A stretch of 64,000 bases of DNA. Source: an uncultured Methanosarcinales archaeon (GTDB lineage Archaea; Nanobdellota; Nanobdellia; Woesearchaeales; DSVV01). Below the pieces are notes generated by a model that did no database searches, was not told where the DNA came from, and saw nothing but the letters and a program-made list of their open reading frames with translations. Both the position numbers and the translations under genes were made by a program. This document shows positions 1,463-48,111 of the stretch, one piece after another; within the stretch, counting starts at the first letter, position 1; each line of letters starts with the position of its first letter. The DNA lies in assembly GCA_964453185.1 (NCBI GenBank), contig CAYVNN010000002.1:55843-119842 (forward strand), read 5' to 3'.

Positions 1463-1646
1463 GTAAAAAAACAATAAGAACTGGTTTATAAAGTTTATTT
1501 ATTTAGAAAATGATTAGAATTGCTATTGCCTTAAGGTCAAAATTTATTAGAAAAACACATAAAGTTCGTTATGTGGGGTTGCGCCCTACAGGCACATAGA
1601 ACTATAATATTCTAATAATGAAAATTTTGAAGGCATTATAGCAATT

Positions 1647-2639
1647 CTACATATTCTTATTTAGAGATTTCAGATAAGAATGTAATTTCTCTTTAACTTT
1701 TATTTTCAACTCTTGACCAATATCAAGAATATCAATCTCATTATCCCAATCAATATCAGGCAAAGTATTAATCTCACTAACTAGATTACGTCCTGCTAAG
1801 TTAGTTTGTTTATCTATCTCTTCTGTATATTTTGAACCAAATTGTTTAATTATTGGAAATTTGCTTACTGAATTAGCTCCAGCTTTAAACAACTCTGAGA
1901 CCCATTCAACCCTATCTGTCCATATTCCTGCCTCAATATCAATCTTTGGAAAAGCTATTCTTGTTGATGCAATCCATTTACAATAATAATCTAATTTAGG
2001 TGGTTCTTTATCTTCAAAATAAGTACCTTTTTGTGGATTTAATGAATAAAAATGAATCTTATCAATATTATGTTTTTCAATAAACTTTTTTAATAATTCA
2101 AAATCTTCAAAAGTTTCTCCTAAACCAATTATGATAGTAATTGCTTTCTTTAATCCAAGTTTTTCAGCAGTTTTAAGCATTTCTTCAAACGGCTTTATTG
2201 GTTTACTTGGACAAACAAAGTCATGTAATTTTGGTTCAACAGTTTCAATAGCTGCAACAACACCTTTGATATAAGGTTTGTATTCAAGAAGTTCATGTTC
2301 TGACAAAGGTCCAACATTAATATAGAACTTATCTCCATATATTATATAGATTAATTCTAACAATTTCTTAAATTCAACTTGAGAATAAGCCTTATGTCCA
2401 CCTGATAAAAAACCAAAGTCCCATTTTAACTTTTTACAAAGAATAGCTTCTGCTAACATACTTTCAGTTGTTCTTCTTGCTAATTTTCCTTTATTATGTT
2501 TACTTTGTACAGACATATAACAATACTTACAATCACCTATTTCACAATACCAACTAAAAAAAATAGCTCTTTCAAAATAAACATCTTTACTAAAGTTCCT
2601 TAGAAATATTTCATCTGCTTTCTGTATGTAGTTGTCCAT
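1647..2639 (-). CDS. radical SAM protein, biotin-synthase-like (BioB/ThiH/HydE/CofG group), with a non-canonical Cx4Cx2C cluster motif
   Basis: The translation contains WYCEIGDCKYCYMS; DCKYC matches the BioB-type motif but the first Cys is spaced one residue further away than usual. FLSGGH resembles a glycine-rich SAM-binding motif. Size 330 aa. Confidence 0.5.
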   Translation of the reverse strand: MDNYIQKADEIFLRNFSKDVYFERAIFFSWYCEIGDCKYCYMSVQSKHNKGKLARRTTESMLAEAILCKKLKWDFGFLSGGHKAYSQVEFKKLLELIYIIYGDKFYINVGPLSEHELLEYKPYIKGVVAAIETVEPKLHDFVCPSKPIKPFEEMLKTAEKLGLKKAITIIIGLGETFEDFELLKKFIEKHNIDKIHFYSLNPQKGTYFEDKEPPKLDYYCKWIASTRIAFPKIDIEAGIWTDRVEWVSELFKAGANSVSKFPIIKQFGSKYTEEIDKQTNLAGRNLVSEINTLPDIDWDNEIDILDIGQELKIKVKEKLHSYLKSLNKNM

Positions 2640-4917: not shown

Positions 4918-4959
4918 AAAAATAAGTTAACATCAATTGTTTAAAAAAGTTACTAAAAT

Positions 4960-5060
4960 AATGCCACCGCCTTGGCTCACTATTATAAATAATTTACAAT
5001 AGCGTCAGAATAAGATACGTACATAAAATAAATTTATAATGCCAGAGCCGCTGTGGCATT
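4960..5060. repeat. structured inverted-repeat element, copy A (ATAATGCCACCGCCTTGGCTCACTAT ... AATGCCAGAGCCGCTGTGGCATTAT)
   Basis: Terminal 10-bp stem ATAATGCCAC/GTGGCATTAT plus inner stem GGCTC/GAGCC. It shares the core with the copies at 17652, 23767, 28321, 43741 and 46133. It lies 3' of the minus-strand gene 5084..5956. Confidence 0.75.
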
Positions 5061-5083
5061 ATTAAAAAAATAAAATAAAAGAA

Positions 5084-5956
5084 TTATTTAAAATAATTCT
5101 TCTTATAATGAACAAAGTAATAAACCAATCCCATAATCACTAAAAGTAATAATACTGCACCAACAACCACTGCAACATTAGATTCTTCTTCAATCTCTGT
5201 TGGAATTGTTTCAGATAAATCTTCTGCAATATCATTTATTGATTTTTCTTCCACTTCCTCTAATTCTTCTTCAGAAGTATCTTCCTCTGGTTCTTCTGGT
5301 TCTTCTTCAAGAATTTCTTCTTCCTCTTCTACATCTTCTGTATCCTCTGTATCCTCTGTACTTTCTTCTGCTTCTTCAACATATTCTCGTAATTCTAAAT
5401 AAACCATTGTACTTGATGATCTTTCAAAATAAACAGATAAATCATTATCTCCATCTTGATCTAAATCAATATATCTTGTTTCCCCTTTCTCAATTGTTAA
5501 TGTCTGTGGATCACTTTCAATTGTTATTGTTGCAATTCGTTCCACAGTATCATAATCATCAACAGTTAATGTATGTGAATAATCATTATACTTAAAACGT
5601 GTATATTGGGTTGGTTTAAGATTTACAGTCTTTGATGTAGATGAAAGTGTAAATAATGTAGATGAACTACCGCCGCCACCTCCACCACTTGATGAAGTTG
5701 TTGTACTAGAATCATCTTCACTACTTGTTGTGCTTGAACTTGAAAAACTAGCAGTAAACTCATAACTAGCAGAAGTTGCACCACCTGAAGCTGATGATGA
5801 TGATGATGTATCTCCTTCATAAGTAGCAGATGACAAATCTCCAGCTACAGTCCCTGAACTAGTTGATTCAGCCTCATAACTATCTGAACTTACATCAGCC
5901 CCAAATACAAAAGGCAATGTAAACAAAATAACTAAAAAAACAATTAATTTTTTCAT
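5084..5956 (-). CDS. secreted acidic Ser/Thr/Gly-rich surface protein with a C-terminal TM anchor
   Basis: N-terminal signal peptide (MKKLIVFLVILFTLPFVFGA), a long S/T/G low-complexity region, an acidic E/D-rich tail and a C-terminal hydrophobic anchor followed by a KKNYFK tail. Confidence 0.5.
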   Translation of the reverse strand: MKKLIVFLVILFTLPFVFGADVSSDSYEAESTSSGTVAGDLSSATYEGDTSSSSSASGGATSASYEFTASFSSSSTTSSEDDSSTTTSSSGGGGGGSSSTLFTLSSTSKTVNLKPTQYTRFKYNDYSHTLTVDDYDTVERIATITIESDPQTLTIEKGETRYIDLDQDGDNDLSVYFERSSSTMVYLELREYVEEAEESTEDTEDTEDVEEEEEILEEEPEEPEEDTSEEELEEVEEKSINDIAEDLSETIPTEIEEESNVAVVVGAVLLLLVIMGLVYYFVHYKKNYFK

Positions 5957-12335: not shown

Positions 12336-14909
12336 ATGAAACATAGTATTTGGACAGAAAAATATAGACCTTCAACATTTGAAGAGATAAAAGGTCAAAA
12401 AGACGCAATTTCTAAGGTTAAAGCATTTGTTGAGCAAAAAAACATGCCGCACTTAATGTTTGCAGGTCCAGCTGGCGTTGGTAAAAGTACAACTGCTTTA
12501 GTTATAGCAAAACAATTATTTGGCAAAGAATGGAGAAATAATTTCCTTGAACTTAATGCATCTGACGAGAGAGGAATTGATGTAATCAGAGTAAAAGTTA
12601 AAGATTTTGCAAGGACAAGAGCCATAGGTGATGTACCATTTAAAATCATCTTCCTTGACGAGTGTTTAGATTATAATTCTAAAATTATTGTACAATCAAA
12701 CTATGGCATTGAAGAAGTTTCTATTGGTAATTTCGTTGAAAATTTTGATTTTCAAAATTATAAAATCATGTCTGTAGATGATAGTGGAGACATGATTTAT
12801 TCAAAAATTACCAAAACTATGAAGCTTCCTCATAATGCTAGTCATGGATACTACAAAATTAAAGTACATGATAAAGAAATAATTGTAACAGGAAATCATG
12901 AATTTTTATCAATTAATGGGTGGAAAAGAGCTGATGAGTTGAAGATAAAAGATCTAGTTCTATGCCCACAAAAAATTCCAATTATTAACAGAATCGAATC
13001 TAATAAACCATTGATATACAATTTAATAGGTTTACCACAGGAGATAAGAAAAAAAGAGAGATATTTACCACAGGAGATAAGAAAAAAAGAGAGATATCTT
13101 CCAAGATCACCTGAAAAACAAATTATTGAATTATTAGGAAAATATCCGGAAGGTTTAACTAGAGAAGAAATAACATTAAAAAGTAAAGTAAGTACTTCAA
13201 AAATAACTTCTATTTTAAGTGATAAAAACAATGTTTATTACATTCCACTAAGAAAACATAAGATCATTAAGAAAAATAAAGACAGATATATTTTAGGAGA
13301 TAATACAGGCAATTCCCTAGACAAGCTTTATAAAATTAAAAGGACACAAAATAATACAAATCAAGAATTCATCTTAACTCAACTTAAATCAAAAGAATTA
13401 TTTCCTATAAAAAGAGAAAATGCAATAATCTGTGCTAGGATTTTAGGGCACCTATTTAGTGATGGTTGTTTAACCCTTAAAAGTAAGCAACTATTTTTCT
13501 CTGGAAAAGAAGAGGATTTAAAAACTATAAAGAAAGATCTTAATAAATTAGGCTATTATTCATTAGGTAATATTAGACATTCAAAATGGAAAAAAGGTGA
13601 ATGTTGGTCTTTTGGAGCTTATAAACTAGAGTTATTAAGCTTATTTTACTCATTAGGTGCCCCAGTAGGAAAAAAGACAGACAATGTAGTAAGAATCCCT
13701 GAATGGATAATGGACAGTGACTTAACTATACAATCAGCATTCTTATCTGCCCTCTTTGGTGGAGATGGTTATGAACCAAAGTTCCAAGGGAGAACAGTCA
13801 AACAAATATTAATAGGAATCTCTAAGCGAGAAGATTTACAAAATAACCTAATTGAGTATCTGAAACAAATACAACAGTTACTTTCCAGATTTAATATAAC
13901 CTCAAGATATAGAATTTGTCCAGGTTATAAATCCACACGGAAAGACAATACAAATACTATTGAAGGCAGAATCTGGATTACTAATTCAATGGAAAATATT
14001 TATAAATTTCTAACTAAGATTGGATATTCATATTGCCAATATAAAGAAAAAACTACAAAAGATGTTATAAAATATTTGGATTGGAAAAAGAGTTTAGGAA
14101 AATTTATTTACACATTTAAACCAGTCCCTTATTTCTATGAATGGAGAGAAAATCTTATGCTTGGTGATTCTTCCTATCATTATGTAACATCTATTGAAAA
14201 AATTAAAGATCCAGATTTTGTATACTGTGTATCTACAGAATCTGGAAGATTTATAGCAAATAATATTGTAGTACATAATTGTGATGCTCTAACAAAAGAA
14301 GCACAACAAGCTCTGAGAAGAACAATGGAAAACTATACATTAACCACAAGATTTGTTTTATCATGTAATTATTCTTCAAAAATCATTGATCCAATCCAAA
14401 GTAGATGTGCAATGTTTAGATTTAAACGTCTACAACAAGATGAAATCATTGATTTAATCAATCATATTGCTACAGCAGAACAATTAAATATCGACGAGGA
14501 TGCAAAAAAAGCATTATACACAGTTTCTGAGGGAGATTGTAGAAAAGCAGAGAATATATTACAATGTTGTACTGCAATTAACAAACACATAACAAAAGAC
14601 CTAATATTTAGTATGGCATCTGTTGCAACACCAACAGAAATCAGAGAAATGCTAGAATTAGCTATTAATAATAAGTTTGTCGACGCTAGAAACAAATTAT
14701 TAGATACAATGTTAAAGTATGGTTTAAGTGGAATTGATATAATCAAACAAATAAACAGAGAAATCTGGAAACTAGATATCGACGACAAAATGAAAGTACA
14801 ACTCATCGACAAATGCGGAGAAACTGAATTCAGAATGACTGAAGGCAGTGATGAGTATTTACAACTTGAAGCATTATTAGCTAATTTTACTCTGTGTAGT
14901 TTGAAATAA
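12336..14909 (+). CDS. rfcS: replication factor C small subunit interrupted by an intein
   Basis: N-terminal EKYRPSTFEEIKGQ...FAGPAGVGKST Walker A, and IIFLDE|C...VVHN|CDALT Walker B split by the intein. C-terminal SRCAMFRFKRL sensor region. Confidence 0.9.
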   Translation: MKHSIWTEKYRPSTFEEIKGQKDAISKVKAFVEQKNMPHLMFAGPAGVGKSTTALVIAKQLFGKEWRNNFLELNASDERGIDVIRVKVKDFARTRAIGDVPFKIIFLDECLDYNSKIIVQSNYGIEEVSIGNFVENFDFQNYKIMSVDDSGDMIYSKITKTMKLPHNASHGYYKIKVHDKEIIVTGNHEFLSINGWKRADELKIKDLVLCPQKIPIINRIESNKPLIYNLIGLPQEIRKKERYLPQEIRKKERYLPRSPEKQIIELLGKYPEGLTREEITLKSKVSTSKITSILSDKNNVYYIPLRKHKIIKKNKDRYILGDNTGNSLDKLYKIKRTQNNTNQEFILTQLKSKELFPIKRENAIICARILGHLFSDGCLTLKSKQLFFSGKEEDLKTIKKDLNKLGYYSLGNIRHSKWKKGECWSFGAYKLELLSLFYSLGAPVGKKTDNVVRIPEWIMDSDLTIQSAFLSALFGGDGYEPKFQGRTVKQILIGISKREDLQNNLIEYLKQIQQLLSRFNITSRYRICPGYKSTRKDNTNTIEGRIWITNSMENIYKFLTKIGYSYCQYKEKTTKDVIKYLDWKKSLGKFIYTFKPVPYFYEWRENLMLGDSSYHYVTSIEKIKDPDFVYCVSTESGRFIANNIVVHNCDALTKEAQQALRRTMENYTLTTRFVLSCNYSSKIIDPIQSRCAMFRFKRLQQDEIIDLINHIATAEQLNIDEDAKKALYTVSEGDCRKAENILQCCTAINKHITKDLIFSMASVATPTEIREMLELAINNKFVDARNKLLDTMLKYGLSGIDIIKQINREIWKLDIDDKMKVQLIDKCGETEFRMTEGSDEYLQLEALLANFTLCSLK
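12663..14279 (+). other. intein (539 aa) with a LAGLIDADG homing endonuclease domain inside rfcS
   Basis: Begins with Cys at the DE|C junction and ends with HN, followed by Cys. Two LAGLIDADG-like motifs: ILGHLFSDGCL and LSALFGGDGY. Confidence 0.8.
13035..13100 (+). repeat. perfect tandem duplication (2 x 33 nt) inside the intein, encoding PQEIRKKERYL twice
   Basis: ccacaggagataagaaaaaaagagagatattta followed by ccacaggagataagaaaaaaagagagatatctt. Confidence 0.9.
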
Positions 14910-17570: not shown

Positions 17571-17651
17571 AATATATCCCTCCTTAATTATAAGTATATA
17601 CTTAATATACCTCTTTATATAATTTGTGGTAAAAATAACAATACTAGCATT

Positions 17652-17753
17652 AAAACCAGCGCCTTGAGTCACTATCTTATTTCTTCATAACTACGCACTA
17701 AAATATGTTGCGTTAATGAAAATTCCTCATAATGCCAGACTCGCTCTGGTTTT
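17652..17753. repeat. structured inverted-repeat element, copy B (CATTAAAACCAGCGCCTTGAGTCACTAT ... AATGCCAGACTCGCTCTGGTTTTAATG)
   Basis: The terminal stem is changed on both arms (AAAACCAG/CTGGTTTT) and the inner stem is changed on both arms (GAGTC/GACTC) relative to copy A. The core CGCCTTG..CACTAT / AATGCCAGA..CGC is retained. Confidence 0.75.
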
Positions 17754-17774
17754 AATGATTCATTATTGACTTTA

Positions 17775-19112
17775 TCATATCGTAGCAGGTATAAACTTAC
17801 ATATTTCTGAAACACCTGTTCCCTGGATTGTCTTTCCATATATATTCAATGTTTTCAGTGTATCCATTGAAAAAGATCCACCATAAGGACATGAATCAGA
17901 TGGTAATGCACTTAATCCACAATATGGAACTGAATAAGTTGAATCACTATAACCATGAATTTCATAATTAACCAAGTCTCCTTTATTATAATTAATCTGA
18001 TGAACATTTTCACCTGCCCCACAAATATACATATTTCCATCAATATATATACAAATACAACCTTTCCATTTATTTAAATTAGCATCACTACAAGGACAAC
18101 CAGTCCCATAACCACCATCACTACTGCCGCCATCATTCGGATCATCAGTATAAACTGGACTTGATGCTTCATATCTTTCATCATCAAAAACACTTGTTAA
18201 TTCTCCACCAGCTTTATAGACACTAACCTCATGTTGAATTGTTTCAGAATATCCATACTCTAATTTAACTAAAACAGGAGTTTGATAAGCTGATTCTTCT
18301 CTCAATGTAAACTTACATTGAATAACTCCAACACCATTCACTAATTTAACTAAATTATCACCAGGGGTACATTGTGCATCCCCCAATCCTGTAATTTCCA
18401 TACTAACTTTTACATAATTCAAATCATCTTGATCAAAACTATACGGACAATTTTCAAATGCAGTTAAATCCTCTGGCTTGTAAACAATACCATTACCTTT
18501 ATTTTCAATTGTCATGATTAAATTAACTTCATTTCTTAATAATTCTGTTTGCACATTAGTAACTGCAACTGGTGCACCTTGTGAAGATAAATAAACAGGT
18601 TCAGTAGTACAAACTTCTCTCTGTTCATAATCACTATAATCATAAATCAAACAAACAACAGGATTAGCAATAGTTTCATAATTATAACATGTACTAAGTT
18701 GTATTGTTGCATCATAACTTTCTCCTAACTGAACTTCTAATGTTCCGGTCTCTTCAACCTCAACAAACTCAGAACTTCCTTCAGGTAAAAAAGGATCAAT
18801 ACCTTCTAACTCTGGCAAATGAATTTCTTCATCTTTAATTTTAATAACTTCTCTATCAAAACCAGATAATAATATCTTACCTTTTGCATCATCAAATGCC
18901 CCTTTATTACTTATCTCAATTTCTAAATTTAAATAATCATTATCATAAAATAATTCTTGTGTTGTTGCAAACTCTACCTCAATTCCATCTGTTCCAGAAC
19001 GATAATCTTCATCACCATAACCACTATTACTAAAAACACAACCTGTAGAAAATAAAACTACAATAATTAAAACAACATAAACACTTTTTCTAAACAAATT
19101 ATTTATTTTCAT
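17775..19112 (-). CDS. secreted lipoprotein (paralog 2 of 3)
   Basis: Signal peptide with an STGC lipobox-like motif. Shares SQGAPVAVT and LEYGYSETIQHEV blocks with the neighbouring genes. Confidence 0.5.
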   Translation of the reverse strand: MKINNLFRKSVYVVLIIVVLFSTGCVFSNSGYGDEDYRSGTDGIEVEFATTQELFYDNDYLNLEIEISNKGAFDDAKGKILLSGFDREVIKIKDEEIHLPELEGIDPFLPEGSSEFVEVEETGTLEVQLGESYDATIQLSTCYNYETIANPVVCLIYDYSDYEQREVCTTEPVYLSSQGAPVAVTNVQTELLRNEVNLIMTIENKGNGIVYKPEDLTAFENCPYSFDQDDLNYVKVSMEITGLGDAQCTPGDNLVKLVNGVGVIQCKFTLREESAYQTPVLVKLEYGYSETIQHEVSVYKAGGELTSVFDDERYEASSPVYTDDPNDGGSSDGGYGTGCPCSDANLNKWKGCICIYIDGNMYICGAGENVHQINYNKGDLVNYEIHGYSDSTYSVPYCGLSALPSDSCPYGGSFSMDTLKTLNIYGKTIQGTGVSEICKFIPATI

Positions 19113-20394: not shown

Positions 20395-23300
20395 TTACGA
20401 AGCCATTGAAGCAAACTGACCCAATGGTACATACTCAAATTGTACCTTTGTGTAATCAGGTAAAACAGTTCCTTCAACAGTATCTCTTTTTCTGACGTAA
20501 AATCCTTGTGAATCTTTTTCATCACACTGTCCCATTACATCATCATCTTCCCATTCAATTGTACAAAATTCTTTAAAATTACCCATATAATCTTTATAAT
20601 AAAGAAATATTTCATCATCTTCATACTTGGTCCAGATAAATCCAGTCCAAACTTCAACCTCATCTGCTCCTTCAATTAAATAATCTGAATTAATAACTGA
20701 ATATGCTAATATTTCATAATTAAAACTCATTAATTTCCCATCCTCTACCACAACATAATAACTAAATGCAGGATTATTATCAATATAAATCCATCTTTCA
20801 GAATATTCTTCTGATGTTGGAATTGTTCCTTCATAAACTGTTTCTGTTTGATTATTCGTGTAAATAAAAATCTTTAATTTCTTTGAATCATCAATACTAA
20901 TTATTAATTTAGTTCCTGATGTGTCTAAATCAATTGTTTCAGAAAAATCTTTTGTTTCACCATTAATTGTAAAACTTCCTTGTACTAAAAAGTTGTCCTC
21001 ATTTGTTTCTGATTTTAATTCTCCACTTTGCACAAGATTAAGCTCTTGAACTTTTTTATAATATGTTTCAACTAACTGAACATATAATCTAACCTGTTCA
21101 TAGTCGTCGTCATACTCACACCAATACCTTTTATCCCCTATACAATCTTGACTATCACAAAATACACCAACATATTCTCCATCTCTAATTCCACAAACAC
21201 CACCATAATATGTTGCTAACAAGTATTCTCTATTTAATTCAGGATCTTCTGAATCAAAAGGAATATTTTCATTATTTAATAAATCATACATTCTCCTTAC
21301 ACCAAACCTAATGTTTGTATCTGGATCAAATAAATCATAATCAACTATTCCCAATTCTGCAGCAATAACTGCAGCATCCTCTTCTGTTATCTGCATTAAT
21401 CCATTTGTTTCACCAAGAGGAGAAGATAATCCCACTGTTGTTGGATCATTCTTAGAACCTGCTGCAATCATTGCAATAACTAATTGTGGATCCATACCAT
21501 ACCTATCAGACCACTCTGAGATACTATTTGGACTTGAAGCATAATAAATAGTATAAATATCACTAACTAATTCATCTGGTTTTCCAGTATAAGATTCTTC
21601 TGATTTTGAATATGATGTTTCCGCATAACCTGCTGCAGTATCTGACTCAATCACCTTAACAGATGTGTCTTCAACAATTTTATAATCATACCTTGCTTTA
21701 ACAAAGAAATACTTTGTAGATATTGGTGTATTTCCTAATAGCTTATGTTCATCAACAATATCTAATCTACAATTGTATGAAACAAAATCTTCAATATCTT
21801 TGTAATGATTGGTGTTTCTTGAAGTGTCTAAATAATATGCATTATATCCATCTAACTCTTCTTGACATTTTAATAATAAGCATGCTCTCATTGTATCATC
21901 TGTAACTGCACCTTCATCTTCACATGCTCTATAGAAAGCAGTTTCATATTCTACATTACTACTTACACATCTATCCTCTGTATATTCTTTAAAATTAGTA
22001 TCTGAACAAGTATCAAGATCAAGTTCCATTGAATCTGGAATTATAACAACAATCTCTTTTATCTCTTCAATCATTCCATCCCAGTTTGTGTCAGCATCTA
22101 ATGTAATTCCTAATCTTGGTTTAACCTGATATGTTGAATCAATTCCTGTTAATGCACTATCTGGACCTATACCTAATCTAATTGGACCATTTGAATATCT
22201 TGCAACAGGATCTTTATCTTCCACTTGATACTGATCTAATAAATCAACACCATCTTTTAATGCAGAATTTAATCTATCTCTACTTGTAAAATATCTTTTA
22301 ACATAACCAATTGTTTCAAAATTAAACTTTGATTCAAATGTAACAGCATGTGAACCAGGACTTAATTTATTTTGAGGAATAGTACAATCAATTTCTTCCT
22401 GCTGCATATCATAAACTTCCATTGTTGCTGGATAAACTTCACCATAAACTTTACTTGTACCTTTTCCAGCATAACATGTTGTATTAATTTGCACCATATC
22501 ATCCAATGTTCTTGCCATTAATATTGCAAACACTGTAACTCTTTCATCTTCATAGAACTTTTCCTTTGAAGCCATAACATCTTCAATATAAACACCAAGC
22601 TGTTCTTCTTCATTCTCCTCAACCTGTCCAACATAATAGGTCGATGTGAGTTGTTTCTTTCTTATTTCCCAAATATCTCCAAACCTTGAAAATGCACCCC
22701 ATGTTGATGTAAATATTTGAGAACCACCTTCAACAAACTTATCCTTTAATACTAGAAATGCATCCCATCTTTCATAATCAGCTGTATCTAATTCTAAATC
22801 AGTAAAACCATACATTTGTCCCATACCATATGAAAGTATGATAAAGACCCACCACATAATAATTAAGAATCTTGATAACCTAATATACCATAACTTTGCT
22901 TCACTTCCTCTATAAACTGCATAGTAAATCCATGTTAACATAATAAATCCATTTGCTACAAACAAACGAATAAAATCAATAGATGCAATCATACTACTTG
23001 ATGCAACCATCCATGGAACAATAACCTCTATACAAAAACATACCAACATAATACGATACGTTTTTCCATTTCTCTCACTAGGATGAAAAATAAATAAGAT
23101 AGGCACAAGAATCATCCAAAATAAATTAAGAAAAATCCTATTTTTAATAGACAACCTTGATCCAATAACAACTGCATGATAAATACAAGCAAAAACAAAG
23201 AACCAAAATATACTAGAATTAGTTCTTCTTTCATCTTCATCTGCTCCACCTTTGAACAGATTAATGATTCCTTTACCACCATAATAAAAAGGAATAGATA

Positions 23301-23739
23301 AACCACGTGTAACAGCATTATGTGTTAAGAATTTACCAAAGCCTTTTGCTCTTTGCCATAATAAACTAGTTAATTGCTTTTTTCTATCTAACTCATCCAT
23401 TCCTTTAGCATGTCTTAATGCTTGAATCTTTGCAGTTAAATCAGAAAGATTAGCTTTATTTTCATTATGAGAATCTTTAAAATCTTTCCAAGGTTGTTGA
23501 AAAGTAGGCTTTACTGCATGTTCTTTCACATGAGGTAAGCCCAAATCTTTAGCCTTAGTCCAATTAGAATGAGCCATATCTACGGCTTCTGTTTTAGCAG
23601 CACCCCATGCCTTACCTGCTCCTGACTTAGTCTTACTCCAAGCAGCACTACTTACAGCTTTAGCTCCTGACTTAGTCTTACTCCAGGCAGCACTACCTAC
23701 AGCTTTAGCTCCTGCCTTAAATCCAGCCCATGATACCAT
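20395..23739 (-). CDS. giant (about 1114 aa) multi-TM protein with a large ectodomain containing an SLT-like (lytic transglycosylase) segment
   Basis: Start at the ATG at 23739 (MVSWAGFKAG), preceded by GAGGT. The longer ORF merely translates repeat copy C. Tandem AKAV(G/S)SAAWSKTKSG repeats are followed by about 6 TM helices. The ectodomain contains IAMIAAGSKNDPTTVGLSSPLGETNGLMQI, which resembles the SLT catalytic region but has Gly where the catalytic Glu is expected. Confidence 0.5.
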   Translation of the reverse strand: MVSWAGFKAGAKAVGSAAWSKTKSGAKAVSSAAWSKTKSGAGKAWGAAKTEAVDMAHSNWTKAKDLGLPHVKEHAVKPTFQQPWKDFKDSHNENKANLSDLTAKIQALRHAKGMDELDRKKQLTSLLWQRAKGFGKFLTHNAVTRGLSIPFYYGGKGIINLFKGGADEDERRTNSSIFWFFVFACIYHAVVIGSRLSIKNRIFLNLFWMILVPILFIFHPSERNGKTYRIMLVCFCIEVIVPWMVASSSMIASIDFIRLFVANGFIMLTWIYYAVYRGSEAKLWYIRLSRFLIIMWWVFIILSYGMGQMYGFTDLELDTADYERWDAFLVLKDKFVEGGSQIFTSTWGAFSRFGDIWEIRKKQLTSTYYVGQVEENEEEQLGVYIEDVMASKEKFYEDERVTVFAILMARTLDDMVQINTTCYAGKGTSKVYGEVYPATMEVYDMQQEEIDCTIPQNKLSPGSHAVTFESKFNFETIGYVKRYFTSRDRLNSALKDGVDLLDQYQVEDKDPVARYSNGPIRLGIGPDSALTGIDSTYQVKPRLGITLDADTNWDGMIEEIKEIVVIIPDSMELDLDTCSDTNFKEYTEDRCVSSNVEYETAFYRACEDEGAVTDDTMRACLLLKCQEELDGYNAYYLDTSRNTNHYKDIEDFVSYNCRLDIVDEHKLLGNTPISTKYFFVKARYDYKIVEDTSVKVIESDTAAGYAETSYSKSEESYTGKPDELVSDIYTIYYASSPNSISEWSDRYGMDPQLVIAMIAAGSKNDPTTVGLSSPLGETNGLMQITEEDAAVIAAELGIVDYDLFDPDTNIRFGVRRMYDLLNNENIPFDSEDPELNREYLLATYYGGVCGIRDGEYVGVFCDSQDCIGDKRYWCEYDDDYEQVRLYVQLVETYYKKVQELNLVQSGELKSETNEDNFLVQGSFTINGETKDFSETIDLDTSGTKLIISIDDSKKLKIFIYTNNQTETVYEGTIPTSEEYSERWIYIDNNPAFSYYVVVEDGKLMSFNYEILAYSVINSDYLIEGADEVEVWTGFIWTKYEDDEIFLYYKDYMGNFKEFCTIEWEDDDVMGQCDEKDSQGFYVRKRDTVEGTVLPDYTKVQFEYVPLGQFASMAS

Positions 23740-23766
23740 TATTAACCTCTTTTTTACAGCTATAAT

Positions 23767-23899
23767 AATGCCACCGCCTTGACTCACTATCTACTATATA
23801 GCGAAGGCGCTAAAAGTCTTTATACGTACAGCAGTGACTTAGTAGCATGCAATGCTACTACCTTCCCTCTACACATCGTGCCAGAGTCGCCGTGGCATT
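23767..23899. repeat. structured inverted-repeat element, copy C
   Basis: AATGCCACCGCCTTGACTCACTAT ... TGCCAGAGTCGCCGTGGCATT. Inner stem GACTC/GAGTC. The internal module TATAGCGAAGGCGCTAAAAGTCTTTATACGTACAG is shared with copy G. Confidence 0.75.
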
Positions 23900-24008
23900 A
23901 TTAACCTCTTTTTTAGTTTTACAACTACCTCAACTTAAATTCTAGAACTTCTTATATATAATATTTATGCATTTATGTATATAATAATTAAAACAAAAAA
24001 AGAAAATC

Positions 24009-25724: not shown

Positions 25725-26004
25725 AAAATCACCTGTTTTTTATGTGTAAATAACATCCTCAGGTCAAAACACCAACAAAAACAAACATAATGCTCGTTGC
25801 GAGGGGTTGTCCCTCCGGGAACGCAGAGCCTTAATTAACCTTAGCCTGTGTTTTGAAGATGTTATTTACATACCTTTTTTATAGATTATTAAGTATTATA
25901 ATATCTATTTTTAAATATTGATATATATAAGGTTTTCTATTTTAAGAAATGAGATAAACTACCTATCCAATATATCACAGATCCTACTAAAATAAGGATC
26001 ATCT

Positions 26005-27327: not shown

Positions 27328-27347
27328 ACATTGACATATACAATAGT

Positions 27348-27368
27348 ACCACCGCCTTGGCTCACCAT
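27348..27368. repeat. solo 5' half of the structured element (ACCACCGCCTTGGCTCACCAT), 21 nt after the pelA stop
   Basis: Matches the 5' core of copies A-G. No 3' partner within 100 nt. Confidence 0.6.
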
Positions 27369-27418: not shown

Positions 27419-28306
27419 ATGGATATAAGAAATGTACAAAGAACAGGGAAAATGCACTATGTTTATTTACCTACAACATGGTGTAAAACAAACAATATTA
27501 GTGGAGATTCAAAGATAATTCTTGAGACAAATAGAGATGGAACATTAAAGATATTTCCCCAATTAGTAGAAAGAAAACCAAAAAAACTTAATTTAAAGAT
27601 TAACGAAGACGATGAAGATATTATCCATAAATTAATTATTGCATGTTATATGAGTCCTGCTTCTGCATTTAAAATTCAATTAGAAAAAAACATAGATTAT
27701 ACAAAATTACTAAATCAAAAAAAATTAGTTAGTTTAGAATTAGTTGAATTAAGTAAAGATAAAGTAATCTGTGAATCATCAGTAATTGCAGGAGATACTG
27801 CTTCTCTAATCAGAACAATGATTAGAAAAATTAGAAACCTATTCACAATAATGTTAAAAAACTATGACAAAGAATTAATTGAAAAATATGAAGAAGAAAT
27901 TGATAGAAACAGACTATTAGTTGAGAAGTCAGTTATAGGAAGTTTAACACATTGTAGAACTCACAAATTAAAAAACATTGATTTATATTATATTGGAACA
28001 ATTTCAAGAAATCTAGAAAACATTGTAGACTTAGCAATCCTTCTCGACAAAAAAGAAAATAAATTTATTACAAAACTTACAAAAATAATGGATAATCTTA
28101 AGAAATTAATGAAAGATATAAGTAATGAAGATAATCCATCTCCTAATTATAAAGATGCAATCAAATTCACAAAAGAAGTTTCAAAACTAGAAGATGAAAA
28201 AGTAACAAATGTTTCTACATATATTAAAAAGAGAATTAAAACAGGTTTTTCAGAAATCTCTGAGACAATTATGGATTGGGGCATAACTAAAGAATTAGAA
28301 AAGTAA
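27419..28306 (+). CDS. AbrB-like N-terminal domain + PhoU-like regulator
   Basis: N-terminal IRNVQRTGKMHYVYLPTTW resembles the SpoVT/AbrB N-terminus of archaeal PhoU-family regulators. The rest is helical and repetitive. Confidence 0.45.
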   Translation: MDIRNVQRTGKMHYVYLPTTWCKTNNISGDSKIILETNRDGTLKIFPQLVERKPKKLNLKINEDDEDIIHKLIIACYMSPASAFKIQLEKNIDYTKLLNQKKLVSLELVELSKDKVICESSVIAGDTASLIRTMIRKIRNLFTIMLKNYDKELIEKYEEEIDRNRLLVEKSVIGSLTHCRTHKLKNIDLYYIGTISRNLENIVDLAILLDKKENKFITKLTKIMDNLKKLMKDISNEDNPSPNYKDAIKFTKEVSKLEDEKVTNVSTYIKKRIKTGFSEISETIMDWGITKELEK

Positions 28307-28320
28307 TTCTCAAATACAAT

Positions 28321-28476
28321 AATGCCACCGCCTTGGCTCATTATCCTATCACAACATAGTATAGCGACAGGATATAGCAAAAGCAATTTTTGCTTTCTGC
28401 TTATTACGAAAAGCTTGCTTTGAGTATACGGTTTGTACATTATACATACACATTGAGTCAGAGCCGCAGTGGCATT
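28321..28476. repeat. structured inverted-repeat element, copy E (longest, 156 nt)
   Basis: AATGCCACCGCCTTGGCTCATTAT ... TCAGAGCCGCAGTGGCATTAT. Begins 15 nt after the stop of 27419..28306. Confidence 0.75.
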
Positions 28477-28565
28477 ATCTAGTTCTAACAATATATACAG
28501 TAATATACAAAAAACACACTTCTTCAGGGAAAACTTTAAAAATTAAAAAAAATTCAAGTATTCTA

Positions 28566-43738: not shown

Positions 43739-43740
43739 TA

Positions 43741-43847
43741 TTAACACCACCACCTTGACTCTGTATTGGATAATCCACAAGATCGCACTAAAAGTCGCGT
43801 TGCGTTATTCTAACTTTACTAAGAGCTAGAGTCGCTGTTGGCGTTAA
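43741..43847. repeat. structured inverted-repeat element, copy F
   Basis: TTAACACCACCACCTTGACTCTGTAT ... CTAGAGTCGCTGTTGGCGTTAA. Begins 3 nt after the stop of 42653..43738. The terminal stem pairs better when read from the minus strand (G-U instead of A-C). Confidence 0.65.
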
Positions 43848-43859
43848 TTTAAAGAAATC

Positions 43860-45427: not shown

Positions 45428-46120
45428 ATGAACACTAAAACAGATGAAAATACTAAGACAAAAGTCGTTATGTTTGTAGATATTACTAATTATTCTAAAA
45501 AAACATCAAATATAAGCAAACAAGACCTAATCGAATTACATGACATATTTGATGGCTTCTGTATACCTAATTTTGAAGCATTTACAGGCAGAATCATCAA
45601 GAAAATAGGAGATGCATTCTTAGTAACCTTTGAGAATCCAACAGACGCAGTAATGTGCGGAATTGAATTACAGAAATCATTTCACAATCACAATAAAAAA
45701 ATAAGAAGAACAAGACCTAAAAATCAAATCAGAGTTAGAGTCGCACTCCACATGGGAGAAGTTACATATAGAAAAGGAGATATCTATGGTGACACAGTTA
45801 ACACTACAGCTCGTCTAGAAGCCTTATGTAAACCAGGACAAGTAGTATTTAGTGGATCAGTATATTCTGCAATGGAAAGAAACGGAATAGGTATTGTCCA
45901 TTTAGGTTTAAGAAAATTAAAAGGAATGAAATATCCAGTACAAGCATTTAGAATCAGAACCAAAGTAGACGACAGAATCATCAAGATTAAGAAAAGAAAG
46001 AAATCATATACAAAATTTAAACAAAGAATCAGTGCCAGTATATTATTACTTATTTCACTAATAGCTGGAGCAGCTTCTGTTGCTATTATTCTATATTATC
46101 TATTTAGTACAGTTTTATAA
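45428..46120 (+). CDS. class III nucleotidyl (adenylate/guanylate-type) cyclase with a C-terminal TM anchor
   Basis: VVMFVDITNYS (metal-binding Asp), IGDAFLVTF, GDTVNTTARLE and a C-terminal ILLLISLIAGAASVAIILYYLF helix. Confidence 0.7.
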   Translation: MNTKTDENTKTKVVMFVDITNYSKKTSNISKQDLIELHDIFDGFCIPNFEAFTGRIIKKIGDAFLVTFENPTDAVMCGIELQKSFHNHNKKIRRTRPKNQIRVRVALHMGEVTYRKGDIYGDTVNTTARLEALCKPGQVVFSGSVYSAMERNGIGIVHLGLRKLKGMKYPVQAFRIRTKVDDRIIKIKKRKKSYTKFKQRISASILLLISLIAGAASVAIILYYLFSTVL

Positions 46121-46132
46121 GCAAATAATTTG

Positions 46133-46242
46133 GCATTTGTACTAGCACCTTGACTCACTATTAAATAATACAGCGAAAGCGCTAAAAGTCTTATACGTAC
46201 AGAAAAACATACATTGTATCAGAGTCGTCCTAGTACAAATGC
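46133..46242. repeat. structured inverted-repeat element, copy G
   Basis: GCATTTGTACTAGCACCTTGACTCACTAT ... TATCAGAGTCGTCCTAGTACAAATGC. The terminal stem is a perfect 13-bp helix with a sequence unrelated to the other copies. Begins 13 nt after the cyclase stop. Confidence 0.75.
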
Positions 46243-46325: not shown

Positions 46326-47351
46326 ATGAAGTTTAAATCAGACAAAGAATCAAAACCAATCAAACTTGATCTAAAAGATAAAAGAATTCTAAAATTACTT
46401 GACTTAAATTCTAAACAAAGTTATTCTGCAATTGCAAAAAAAGTTGGATTATCTAAAGAAAGTATTAGATATAGAATAAAACAACTAGAAGACAAAGGAG
46501 TAATACAAGGATACAGACTTGTAGTTGATATGCAGAAATTAGGATTCATTGTTAATCATATTTTTATGACACTAAGCAAACCAGACCTAAAGATTGAAGC
46601 AGATTACTTAGATAAACTAATCAAACTACCCTTTGTCAGAGCAATAATTAAATTTAATGGAGATTATGATTATGAAATTGCAATGGTTGCAAAGAATGTT
46701 GAAGAGATTGATAATAATCTAAACACATTACTTGAAGATGTAAGTCAATTCATAAAAAAACAAGAATTATTTATTGTTGTTAAATATTACGTAAAAAAAG
46801 GATTACCAAATAGTTTTTTACCAGAATCTCAAGCAGGATTTAAGAAAGTAACAAATGAGACGACAAAAGAACCAAATATTGATGAAAAAGATTTAAAGAT
46901 AATTGATGCAATGAAAGGACAAGCAAATAAACCAATCTATCAAATTGCAGAAGAAACAGGATATTCTTCAGAAGTTGTTTCTTACAGACTTAAAAAGATG
47001 GAAAAATCTGGCTTTATATCTAATTATACAATTGCACTTAATTATTATGCATTTAATTATCAAGTCTATGTAATATTACTTAATGTCCATAGTTTACATG
47101 GTGAAACTGAACAAAAACTAGCTAGTTTCTTAGAAAATGATAATAATGTTATTTGGGCAGTTAAAACAATTGGTAAATATAATGTTATTGCATATGTCTG
47201 CACAAAAAGCATTAATGAATTACATGAAACCATAGATAAAATAAGAAGAAACTTTGGAGATAACCTTCAAGATCACAAAACATTAATTGCTTATGAAAAC
47301 AATAAGTTTACTTATGTACCTGATGTTGCACTAAGTGAAGAAGCAGAGTAA
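46326..47351 (+). CDS. tandem (double) Lrp/AsnC-family transcriptional regulator
   Basis: Two HTH_AsnC-like segments (KDKRILKLLDLNSKQSYSAIAKKVGLSKESIRYRIKQLEDKGVIQGY and DLKIIDAMKGQANKPIYQIAEETGYSSEVVSYRLKKMEKSGFI), each followed by a RAM-like domain. Confidence 0.65.
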   Translation: MKFKSDKESKPIKLDLKDKRILKLLDLNSKQSYSAIAKKVGLSKESIRYRIKQLEDKGVIQGYRLVVDMQKLGFIVNHIFMTLSKPDLKIEADYLDKLIKLPFVRAIIKFNGDYDYEIAMVAKNVEEIDNNLNTLLEDVSQFIKKQELFIVVKYYVKKGLPNSFLPESQAGFKKVTNETTKEPNIDEKDLKIIDAMKGQANKPIYQIAEETGYSSEVVSYRLKKMEKSGFISNYTIALNYYAFNYQVYVILLNVHSLHGETEQKLASFLENDNNVIWAVKTIGKYNVIAYVCTKSINELHETIDKIRRNFGDNLQDHKTLIAYENNKFTYVPDVALSEEAE

Positions 47352-47358
47352 TCATTAT

Positions 47359-47379
47359 CACCACTGCCTTGGTTCATTA
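47359..47379. repeat. solo 5' half of the structured element (ACCACTGCCTTGGTTCATTAT), 8 nt after the Lrp gene stop
   Basis: Matches the 5' core with 2 substitutions; no 3' partner. Confidence 0.5.
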
Positions 47380-47421
47380 TTCCAAAAACTTTAAAAACCA
47401 GTAAACTAAGAATCTTATACA

Positions 47422-47786: not shown

Positions 47787-48111
47787 ATTGTAGGGAAGTA
47801 CTTAACTATCGGTGTAAACTGAGGAAAGTCCGTCCACCGTGAAAGACCAGTCTTGGAAGGGACATGGAGAAATTCATGGCAACCACTCAGAAACGAAACC
47901 ACTTGTACTGGGAATGATAGAGTGAAGCAAATGGCGACATTTGTTAGTATCCTCTTGACTATCTTTACAAGAAAGGATGAAACGGTGAGCCCTGGTTGGT
48001 GCAAGGCAGTAACTTTATGTTACATCAGTCCGCTAAGTTAAATGTTAAGGGGTCTGTTTGCATTCAAGGTGCATAGACTCAACAGAAGACGGCTTACCTC
48101 TTCTCTACAAT
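47787..48111 (+). ncRNA. rnpB: RNase P RNA (archaeal type A-like)
   Basis: GAGGAAAGTCCG (P4 5' strand / CR-I) near the 5' end and CAACAGAAGACGGCTTACC (CR-V / P4 3' strand) near the 3' end. P1 pairing of ATTGTAGGGAAG (47787-47798) with CTTCTCTACAAT (48100-48111). Length about 325 nt. Confidence 0.85.

What the first reader, a model, noticed from the sequence alone, without database searches (positions are those of the whole stretch)
23797..23831. Conserved internal module with a tetraloop hairpin shared by copies C and G of the repeat element
Copy C has TATAGCGAAGGCGCTAAAAGTCTTTATACGTACAG (23797-23831). Copy G has ATACAGCGAAAGCGCTAAAAGTCTTATACGTACAG (46168-46202). They are about 90% identical although their terminal stems differ completely. 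The module contains AGCG-AARG-CGCT, a 4-bp stem with a GNRA-like loop, again with an A/G difference confined to the loop. Copy A retains only ...ATACGTACA, and copies E and F have different interiors. So the interior is modular and evolves separately from the ends. That is expected for a family of RNAs sharing a scaffold, or for MITEs derived from a common parent.
Basis: seen in the sequence. Interest (0 to 1): 0.5.

Follow-up and report, generated by a model that had tools for sequence, protein, structure and literature searches.

The report
Hairpin repeat family in DPANN archaeon
The flagged 35-base match is real, and it is the best-preserved interior piece of a small, previously undescribed family of 105-160-bp hairpin-forming intergenic repeats in an uncultured DPANN archaeon; these are most likely selfish foldback DNA of the REPIN/MITE kind rather than an RNA gene family.

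Summary
In detail: 23797-23831 and 46168-46202 read exactly as quoted. The best local alignment is 33/36 identical (P<0.001 by shuffling).

The two segments lie inside copies C and G of a family with six complete copies (A, B, C, E, F, G) and two solo 5' arms (D, H). All eight have the same polarity on one DNA strand.

Every complete copy has the same base:
- a variable 10-13-bp outer stem
- a conserved C-versus-non-G mismatch
- 2 bp
- a CTT bulge
- a 5-bp helix, GRNTC/GANYC

The stems are 97% paired. Eleven of 19 pairs show changes on both sides.

Similarity is mosaic. Interiors group as C+G and B+F. Outer arms group as A+C+E(+F) and B+G.

The AGCG-AARG-CGCT hairpin is not a GNRA tetraloop and is not conserved across the family.

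No Rfam family matches. No copy occurs in syntenic DNA of the closest relatives (Pelota 71%, 61% and 60% identical). No protein-coding parent element or transposase lies in the window.

Best reading: structure-maintained, non-autonomous foldback DNA resembling REPINs. It is not a demonstrated member of that class. The rest of the genome could not be reached.

The parts
4957..5063 (+). Copy A, complete. Outer stem AATAATGCCAC/GTGGCATTATT, core GGCTC/GAGCC. The interior keeps ATAGCG and ATACGTACA. It ends 20 nt from the stop codon of minus-strand gene 5084-5956.
   Evidence: 111 bits
17648..17757 (+). Copy B, complete. Outer stem CATTAAAACCAG/CTGGTTTTAATG, core GAGTC/GACTC (a change on both sides relative to C). 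The interior resembles F. It ends 17 nt from the stop codon of minus-strand gene 17775-19112.
23763..23903 (+). Copy C, complete. The outer stem is the same type as A and E; core GACTC/GAGTC. It carries an extra 9-bp hairpin, GTAGTAGCA..TGCTACTAC. It sits in the 5' leader of the minus-strand SLT-domain gene.
23797..23831 (+). The flagged module in copy C: TATAGCGAAGGCGCTAAAAGTCTTTATACGTACAG.
46168..46202 (+). The matching module in copy G: ATACAGCGAAAGCGCTAAAAGTCTTATACGTACAG.
23737..23756 (.). Left copy of the 20-bp direct repeat CATTATTAACCTCTTTTTTA. It is the ribosome-binding site plus ATG of gene 20395-23742, read on the other strand.
   Evidence: 0 of 2000 shuffles
23896..23915 (.). Right copy of the same 20-bp direct repeat. 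Its first 7-8 nt overlap the right end of copy C.
27341..27368 (+). Solo 5' arm D: outer arm plus CCTTGGCTCACCAT, with no 3' partner. It starts 13 nt after the Pelota stop codon.
28319..28478 (+). Copy E, complete and the longest. The outer stem is the same type as A and C; core GGCTC/GAGCC. It starts 12 nt after the stop codon of plus-strand gene 27419-28306.
43740..43848 (+). Copy F, complete but degraded (two A.C mismatches on this strand; z-score only -1.4). The interior resembles B. It lies between two convergent stop codons, 1 nt and 11 nt away.
46133..46242 (+). Copy G, complete. Outer stem GCATTTGTACTAG/CTAGTACAAATGC, core GACTC/GAGTC. The 2-bp step is AC/GT, a change on both sides relative to GC/GC. 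It starts 12 nt after the stop codon of plus-strand gene 45428-46120.
47353..47380 (+). Solo 5' arm H: outer arm plus CCTTGGTTCATTAT, with no 3' partner. It starts 1 nt after the stop codon of plus-strand gene 46326-47351.

Best explanation
The module belongs to a lineage-specific family of non-autonomous foldback DNA repeats, 105-160 bp long, in an uncultured Woesearchaeota/Nanoarchaeota-type archaeon.

Shown:
- Each copy is one long imperfect palindrome.
- Its base is invariant in shape: outer stem, a C opposite a non-G, 2 bp, a 3-nt CTT bulge on one arm only, then a 5-bp helix.
- The stem sequences vary and stay complementary.
- All copies point the same way on the chromosome, whatever the direction of the neighbouring genes.
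- Seven of the eight lie within 20 nt of a stop codon.
- At least one copy (C) is an insertion relative to related genomes.

Inferred:
- What is recognised, copied or maintained is the folded single-stranded hairpin with its extrahelical bases, not a fixed terminal sequence. This is how REPINs are thought to be handled by RAYT (Y1/HUH) transposases, and how IS200/IS605 ends and integron attC sites are recognised.
- The single polarity would then reflect use of one strand at the replication fork.
- Solo arms D and H are decayed remnants.
- The strong C/G similarity, set against different outer arms, comes from common descent of all interiors plus recombination or gene conversion between copies. 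This gives chimeras such as G, with B-like arms and a C-like interior.
- The small AGCG/CGCT hairpin is incidental.
For: Architecture and its significance:
- The terminal hairpin is recovered for all six copies with RNA parameters, and for the five tested (A, B, C, F, G) with DNA parameters. z-scores run from about -3.7 to -5.6, except for degraded copy F (-0.7 to -2.1).
- Of 19 stem pairs, 97.4% of cells are paired and 11 pairs show changes on both sides. The covariation score is 0.516 against 0.225 for shuffles (0 of 500 reach it). Sliding the pairing register gives 28-44% paired.

DNA-like pairing: by my tally of the pair counts, 108 of 114 cells are Watson-Crick. Only 3 are G.U, and 3 are unpaired at the outermost column.

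Polarity and location:
- All eight copies have one polarity, while the flanking genes lie on both strands.
- GC skew has one sign across the whole window.

Lineage restriction and insertion:
- No copy was found in 59 kb of syntenic DNA from relatives with Pelota 71%, 61% and 60% identical. This held for the descriptor scan and for the covariance model with filters off.
- The SLT-gene leader in relatives runs about 60 nt from TATA box to ATG. In the window the same leader is interrupted by copy C and bracketed by a 20-bp duplication.

Remnants: D and H have no 3' partner.

Mosaicism: C-G and B-F interiors are significantly similar. Outer arms group A/C/E/F and, less tightly, B/G.

Precedent: REPINs are about 100-bp extragenic hairpins with a variable spacer, frequent compensatory changes and defunct singlets (PMC3116915).

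No match to any Rfam family.
Against: - No transposase, HUH protein or recombinase is encoded in the window (Pfam).
- The only transposase within about 86 kb is an IS6-family DDE enzyme, and its candidate inverted repeats are unrelated to these ends.
- Only six complete copies were seen, and no presence/absence polymorphism. All public contigs of this organism that were retrieved and compared are 100% identical to the window.
- The arms lack the internal REP palindrome that defines a REPIN.
- Conserved core with variable outer stem is the reverse of most mobile elements and is typical of structured RNAs.
- Covariation alone cannot separate an RNA structure from an ssDNA structure.
- All three non-Watson-Crick pairs in the stems are G.U on the minus strand. 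This is weakly what an RNA from that strand would show.
- Five of six copies have no target-site duplication, and C's 20-bp duplication fits no known transposition chemistry well.
Confidence: 0.5

Rival explanations
1. A family of structured non-coding RNAs, or cis-acting RNA elements in intergenic or 3'-untranslated regions, with a conserved protein-binding base (mismatch, 3-nt bulge, 5-bp helix), a variable closing stem and a variable apical region. It would probably be transcribed from the minus strand.
For: - The strong compensatory covariation and the pattern of conserved unpaired nucleotides with variable stems are what RNA families show.
- The minus strand gives the lower free energy for all six copies.
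- The only non-Watson-Crick stem pairs are three G.U on the minus strand.
- Copies A, B and C lie between co-directional minus-strand genes, and E and F lie downstream of minus-strand genes, so they would be co-transcribed.
Against: - There is no Rfam match even at E<=10.
- Copies are absent from syntenic regions of relatives.
- Relative to shuffles, the plus strand is at least as structured as the minus strand in four of the five copies tested.
- G, D and H sit between plus-strand genes, so they would be antisense to those genes.
- G.U pairs are rare, about 3% of cells.
- Interior hairpins are not conserved: C/G and B/F pair differently.
- Truncated solo arms and one degraded copy look like decay.
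- No conserved promoter or terminator spacing stood out when I read the flanks by eye. This was not tested formally.
Confidence: 0.25
2. A classical MITE, cut and pasted by a DDE transposase encoded elsewhere in the genome. The 18-21-bp imperfect terminal inverted repeats would be the transposase binding sites.
For: - Small size, AT-rich intergenic location, terminal inverted repeats and no coding capacity.
- An IS6-family transposase gene lies a few kb from the window.
- A second, unrelated foldback family is present in the same window.
Against: - Five of six copies have no significant flanking direct repeat.
- The outer parts of the inverted repeats differ between copies in one genome yet remain complementary. 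A single sequence-specific transposase would not tolerate or produce this.
- The candidate ends of the IS6 are unrelated.
- Uniform polarity in 8 of 8 copies is not expected for symmetric cut-and-paste elements.
Confidence: 0.1
3. Only the conserved core is mobile, and it inserts into the centre of pre-existing host palindromes. Alternatively, part of the outer stem is derived from the target at insertion. Either would explain variable but perfectly paired outer stems.
For: In copy C the last 7-8 nt of the right outer arm (CATTATT(A)) coincide with the start of the duplicated native sequence (RBS plus ATG). Outer stems diverge much faster than the C/G interior.
Against: - A, C and E share the same outer stem in three unrelated contexts, so the stem travels with the element.
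- No empty palindrome of either stem type exists in the window.
- The core helix itself covaries.
Confidence: 0.07

Closest known systems
REPINs (REP doublets forming hairpins) mobilised by RAYT Y1 transposases, in bacteria
   Same: About 100-bp extragenic elements that fold into one long hairpin. Conserved sequence near both ends, a variable middle, and frequent compensatory changes across the hairpin. Solo halves occur as decayed remnants. They are non-coding and non-autonomous (PMC3116915; 10.1101/2021.07.10.451892).
   Different: - Each REP arm of a REPIN contains its own short palindrome (about 14 bp) and usually a GTAG/CGTC tag. The arms here have neither.
- Here the outermost stem is the variable part and the inner core is the conserved part.
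- No RAYT gene could be linked to this genome.
[quoted passage not shown]
- Copy number here is unknown beyond six complete copies.
MITEs (miniature inverted-repeat transposable elements)
   Same: Small, non-coding and intergenic, with terminal inverted repeats and a foldback potential. Several families can share one genome.
   Different: Five of six copies have no target-site duplication. The inverted-repeat sequence is not conserved between copies. All copies share one polarity. No parent IS with matching ends was found.
Integron attC sites
   Same: Imperfect palindromes of 57-141 bp whose structure, not sequence, is conserved. Extrahelical bases on one strand give polarity. All sites in an array share one orientation and lie between genes (established knowledge).
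   Different: - The RYYYAAC...GTTRRRY core sites are absent.
- In attC the conserved part is at the outer ends, not the inside.
- The genes between copies here are housekeeping genes on both strands (RFC, Pelota, RNase P RNA), not cassettes.
- No integrase is present.
IS200/IS605-derived small elements (PATEs) and their TnpA hairpin recognition
   Same: No target duplication, recognition of imperfect DNA hairpins with extrahelical bases, and an orientation bias tied to replication (established knowledge; PMC6006769 abstract).
   Different: Those elements have separate subterminal hairpins at each end and no end-to-end pairing. No conserved target tetranucleotide was seen next to these copies on inspection of the flanks.
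ERIC / IRU-type enterobacterial intergenic imperfect palindromes
   Same: Imperfect palindromes of about 127 bp in intergenic, often co-transcribed, positions. Size variants arise from internal insertions and deletions (established knowledge).
   Different: There is no sequence relationship. ERIC copies occur in both orientations and keep a conserved sequence along the whole palindrome.

Membership tests
REPIN/RAYT system | Element folds into a single long hairpin formed by two inverted conserved ends around a variable spacer | tested here: met
   Folds for all six copies with RNA parameters and for five with DNA parameters. 97.4% of stem cells are paired. The interior varies from 58 to 114 nt.
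REPIN/RAYT system | Each arm is a REP: it contains its own short palindrome of about 14 bp (usually with a GTAG/CGTC tag) | tested here: not met
   The arms read ATAATGCCACCGCCTTGRCTCA. A 4-bp GCCA/TGGC self-pairing exists only in A, D and E and is lost in C, F and G. The core covaries with the opposite arm, not within an arm.
REPIN/RAYT system | A single-copy RAYT (Y1/HUH) gene in the same genome, typically flanked by the repeats | not testable with these tools
   None in the window; no element copy and no Y1_Tnp call in about 22 kb of flanking DNA. Y1_Tnp genes exist in related Woesearchaeota, but none could be tied to this organism. The rest of the genome could not be reached.
REPIN/RAYT system | Tens to hundreds of copies per genome | not testable with these tools
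   Six complete copies plus two solo arms in about 86 kb. The collection scans did not recover this organism.
MITE | Terminal inverted repeats | tested here: met
   18-21 nt of imperfect inverted repeat at the ends of all six copies.
MITE | Short target-site duplication flanking each copy | tested here: not met
   Only C has a significant flanking direct repeat (20 bp). For A, B, E, F and G the longest repeats are 5-8 bp, with shuffle P of 0.09-0.89.
MITE | Ends match those of an autonomous IS in the genome | tested here: inconclusive
   The nearby IS6 has unrelated candidate ends. The rest of the genome was not available.
Integron attC | R''/R' core sites RYYYAAC ... GTTRRRY at the outer ends, and an adjacent integron integrase or cassette array | tested here: not met
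   The ends are ATAATGCCAC, CATTAAAACCAG or GCATTTGTACTAG. No attC match in Rfam. Intervening genes are housekeeping genes on both strands.
Any described RNA family (Rfam 15) | Covariance-model match at the gathering score, or any suggestive sub-threshold match | tested here: not met
   The only gathering-level hit in the window is RNase P RNA. Copies C and G searched alone at E<=10 gave nothing or chance microRNA hits at E>3.
GNRA tetraloop hairpin | Four-base loop of the form G-N-R-A closed by a helix, conserved across homologues | tested here: not met
   The loops are AAGG and AAAG (CCUU and CUUU on the other strand). The hairpin exists only in C and G; B and F pair the homologous segment differently.

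The most novel reading that the evidence does not exclude
These are the first REPIN-like replicators seen in Archaea. They would be hairpin DNA elements kept foldable by selection for mobilisation through a single-stranded intermediate, recognised by shape (C mismatch plus CTT bulge) by a Y1/HUH-type or still unknown enzyme. Their strict single polarity would record coupling to one strand of the replication fork. A second foldback family with the same layout and polarity (1512-1652, 25741-25875) would then use the same machinery.
Probability: 0.25. Interest if true: 0.65.

Novelty: new variant of a known kind. Interest (0 to 1): 0.4.

Why it matters
[quoted passage not shown] DPANN archaea have small, compact genomes in which persistent selfish repeats are unexpected.

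This family has a conserved asymmetric hairpin foot, compensated stem evolution, one polarity and a mosaic interior. It would give a tractable case for asking how structure-specific DNA or RNA recognition works in these organisms. It would also provide a marker for replication direction and for strain-level rearrangement in metagenome-assembled genomes.

If the elements turn out to be RNAs instead, they would be a new multi-copy archaeal RNA class. In either case the specific C/G module is a minor detail of the family.

Tried and rejected
Collection scans:
- Genome contigs, with the two-motif pattern.
- Metagenome contigs, with a specific two-gap pattern. It gave zero hits and did not even recover the window's own copies. 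So that collection probably lacks this organism, and the absence says nothing about rarity.
- Metagenome contigs, second scan. It hit only a glycine-rich coding sequence of gut bacteria.
- Viral contigs: 59 chance hits, none with the structure.
- BLAST of copy C against plasmids and phages: no match.

Look-ups and protein searches:
- Two look-ups were wasted by trimming the wrong end of minus-strand ORFs.
- I extended the genome 12.6 kb to the left and 9.7 kb to the right. No more copies were found.
- I used the IS6 transposase to sample other loci, but it is on record at only one locus.
- I searched for homologues of the Y1 transposase from a relative. None could be tied to this organism.

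Ideas rejected on reading the sequence:
- K-turn: the bases after the bulge form Watson-Crick pairs that covary.
- Bulge-helix-bulge splice site: there is no opposing 3-nt bulge.
- Hairpin, hammerhead or twister ribozymes, and group II intron domain 5: core sequences are absent, and there is no Rfam hit.
- tRNA-like: ARAGORN finds none.
- Small ORFs: the reading frames are not conserved between copies.
- D plus E as the two ends of an ORF-carrying parent: the ORF is a host gene.

Choosing the RNA strand by folding energy is inconclusive. The minus strand has the lower free energy, but the plus strand has equal or better z-scores in four of the five copies tested.

Full report
**Observation**

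The two strings are present exactly as quoted, at 23797-23831 and 46168-46202. A local alignment of the two element interiors gives 36 columns with 33 identities, 2 mismatches and 1 gap. No shuffle out of 1000 reached that score. One mismatch is the A/G in the four-base loop between AGCG and CGCT, as stated.

**Host and context**

- The window is 30% G+C.
- It carries an archaeal RNase P RNA at 47790-48108, Pelota, an intein-containing RFC, Nre, a THUMP methyltransferase, an H+-pyrophosphatase (precomputed Pfam call on the public contig), SLT-domain proteins and many orphan proteins.
- Named Pelota homologues are from Woesearchaeota and Nanoarchaeota, so this is an uncultured DPANN archaeon.
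- Contigs of the same organism occur in several public metagenomes; those retrieved and compared are 100% identical to the window. No strain polymorphism could therefore be used.

**The family**

The motif CCTTGRNTCAYYAT occurs eight times, always on the plus strand.

Six occurrences are complete elements:
- A, 4957-5063
- B, 17648-17757
- C, 23763-23903
- E, 28319-28478
- F, 43740-43848
- G, 46133-46242

Two are solo 5' arms with no 3' partner anywhere in the window:
- D, 27341-27368
- H, 47353-47380

Every complete copy folds into one long hairpin with the same base. Read on the plus strand, it has:
- an outer stem of 10-13 bp
- a C opposite U, C or A, and never G
- 2 bp (RC/GY)
- a three-base CTT bulge on the 5' arm only
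- a 5-bp helix, GRNTC/GANYC
- a small internal loop, then a variable interior of 58-114 nt

The same base folds with DNA parameters in the five copies tested.

A covariance model built from the six copies finds only those six. It was run over the window, over about 22 kb of additional flanking DNA from this genome, and over 59 kb from relatives, with filters off for the window and the relatives.

**Is the structure more than chance?**

- z-scores against dinucleotide shuffles run from about -3.7 to -5.6. Degraded copy F is the exception.
- Over 19 stem pairs, 97.4% of cells are standard pairs, against 83% for shuffles.
- 11 pairs show changes on both sides.
- The covariation score is 0.516 against 0.225. 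No shuffle out of 500 reaches any of these values.
- Sliding the pairing register drops pairing to 28-44%.
- The core helix has three compensated states: GGCTC/GAGCC, GACTC/GAGTC and GAGTC/GACTC.
- By my reading of the arm sequences, B and G differ at four positions of the paired outer stem, and all four are matched by complementary changes in the other arm.

Pairing has therefore been actively maintained. That could be by selection on a single-stranded fold or by hairpin-templated correction.

**Interior versus ends**

- Interiors are significantly similar only for C-G and for B-F (24 columns). Both have P<0.001.
- Outer arms group differently. A, C and E are 79-93% identical to each other, and F is 60-77% identical to them. 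B and G are 57-69% identical to each other. C versus G is only 36-38%.

Recombination or conversion between copies is the economical explanation.

However, all six interiors keep traces of one ancestral interior: ATAGCG in A, C and E (ACAGCG in G), CGC(A)CTAAAAGTC in B, C, F and G, and ATACGTACA in A, C and G. The 'module' is therefore simply the best-preserved stretch.

The AGCG-AARG-CGCT hairpin is not a GNRA tetraloop. It occurs only in C and G. The homologous CGCA of B and F pairs downstream with TGCG instead. It is not a conserved structural unit.

**DNA element or RNA?**

For DNA:
- The stems are almost purely Watson-Crick. By my tally of the pair counts, 108 of 114 cells are Watson-Crick and only three are G.U.
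- All eight copies share one chromosomal polarity, although the flanking genes lie on both strands. GC skew keeps one sign across the window.
- Seven of the eight lie within 1-20 nt of a stop codon, in either orientation relative to that gene.
- Relatives with Pelota 71%, 61% and 60% identical keep the SLT / 565-aa / Pelota synteny but have no copy.
- In relatives the SLT-gene leader runs about 60 nt from TATA box to ATG. In the window the same leader is interrupted by copy C, which is bracketed by a 20-bp duplication of the ribosome-binding site plus ATG.
- There are solo arms and one decaying copy.

For RNA:
- A conserved core with variable stems is typical of RNA families.
- The minus strand folds with the lower free energy in all six copies.
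- The three wobble pairs are all G.U on the minus strand.

But z-scores do not favour the minus strand. No Rfam family matches. G, D and H would be antisense to the plus-strand genes on either side.

I therefore favour selfish foldback DNA maintained through its hairpin (confidence 0.5) over an RNA family (0.25).

**Mechanism (inferred)**

Recognition of a folded single strand by its extrahelical bases is known for three systems: IS200/IS605 TnpA, RAYT acting on REP sequences, and IntI acting on attC (established knowledge). REPINs share several features with this family. They form a hairpin of about 100 bp, have a variable middle, show common compensatory changes, and leave singlet remnants (PMC3116915). 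[quoted passage not shown]

Membership is not established, for three reasons:
- The arms lack the internal REP palindrome (tested, not met).
- No Y1/HUH gene could be tied to this genome.
- Copy number is unknown.

Classical MITE status fails on target-site duplications. Only C has one; the others have shuffle P of 0.09-0.89. It also fails on the non-conserved inverted-repeat sequence. The only nearby transposase is IS6-family and has unrelated candidate ends. attC status fails on the core sites and on the cassette context.

**Parent element**

None was found. The 295-aa ORF between D and E is a host gene, 53% identical to the one in a relative that lacks the repeats. No transposase or recombinase is encoded in the window.

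**Limits**

The evidence therefore rests on six complete copies in about 86 kb.

**Verdict**

This is a real, previously undescribed hairpin repeat family. The flagged module is genuine but is a minor feature of it. The family is a new variant of a known kind, of moderate interest.

Noticed in passing
window 1512-1652 and 25741-25875 (+): A second foldback family, unrelated in sequence, with two copies in the same polarity as the first. It has a variable outer stem, a 5'-arm bulge, an inner helix AGGTCAAAA...TTTTGAAG and a conserved GC-rich centre (GYTCGTT..GGGGTTG..CCCT..AGARC) with compensated pairs. z-scores are -6.4 and -4.8. There is no Rfam match. The orthologous gap in relative L214 is too short to hold a copy (about 100 nt). 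It could be a small RNA gene with a processing stem, or another repeat class.
   Followed up: partly
window 23737-23756 and 23896-23915: A 20-bp direct repeat (RBS plus ATG of the SLT-domain gene) brackets copy C. Its right copy overlaps the last 7-8 nt of the element. No other copy has a significant flanking repeat. The length fits no usual target-site duplication, and the overlap hints at homology between the element end and its target.
   Followed up: partly
window 47790-48108 (+): Archaeal RNase P RNA, 127.6 bits, with two sizeable insertions relative to the Rfam consensus. It lies about 400 nt downstream of solo arm H.
   Followed up: no
window 12336-14909 (+): The replication factor C gene is interrupted by an intein with a LAGLIDADG homing-endonuclease domain. 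The orthologue in relative L214 is 319 aa and has no intein.
   Followed up: no
L277 10001-10870 (about 2-3 kb left of the window): An IS6-family DDE transposase (289 aa) lies next to an RNase H-like / PolB-exonuclease fragment. It is on record at only one locus. Its candidate inverted repeats are unrelated to the hairpin family.
   Followed up: partly
L215 14584-15136 and 16352-16373: A related Woesearchaeote (Pelota 60% identical) carries a Y1_Tnp (IS200/IS605-type) gene. REP-like repeats of the form ...CCCTAAAGGRCGG lie at both ends of the gene, and a third, weaker copy lies 1.2 kb away. So hairpin-recognising Y1 enzymes exist in this lineage.
   Followed up: partly
window 1-64000: ARAGORN detects no tRNA gene in 64 kb. 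GC skew is negative along the whole plus strand, including stretches of plus-strand genes.
   Followed up: no
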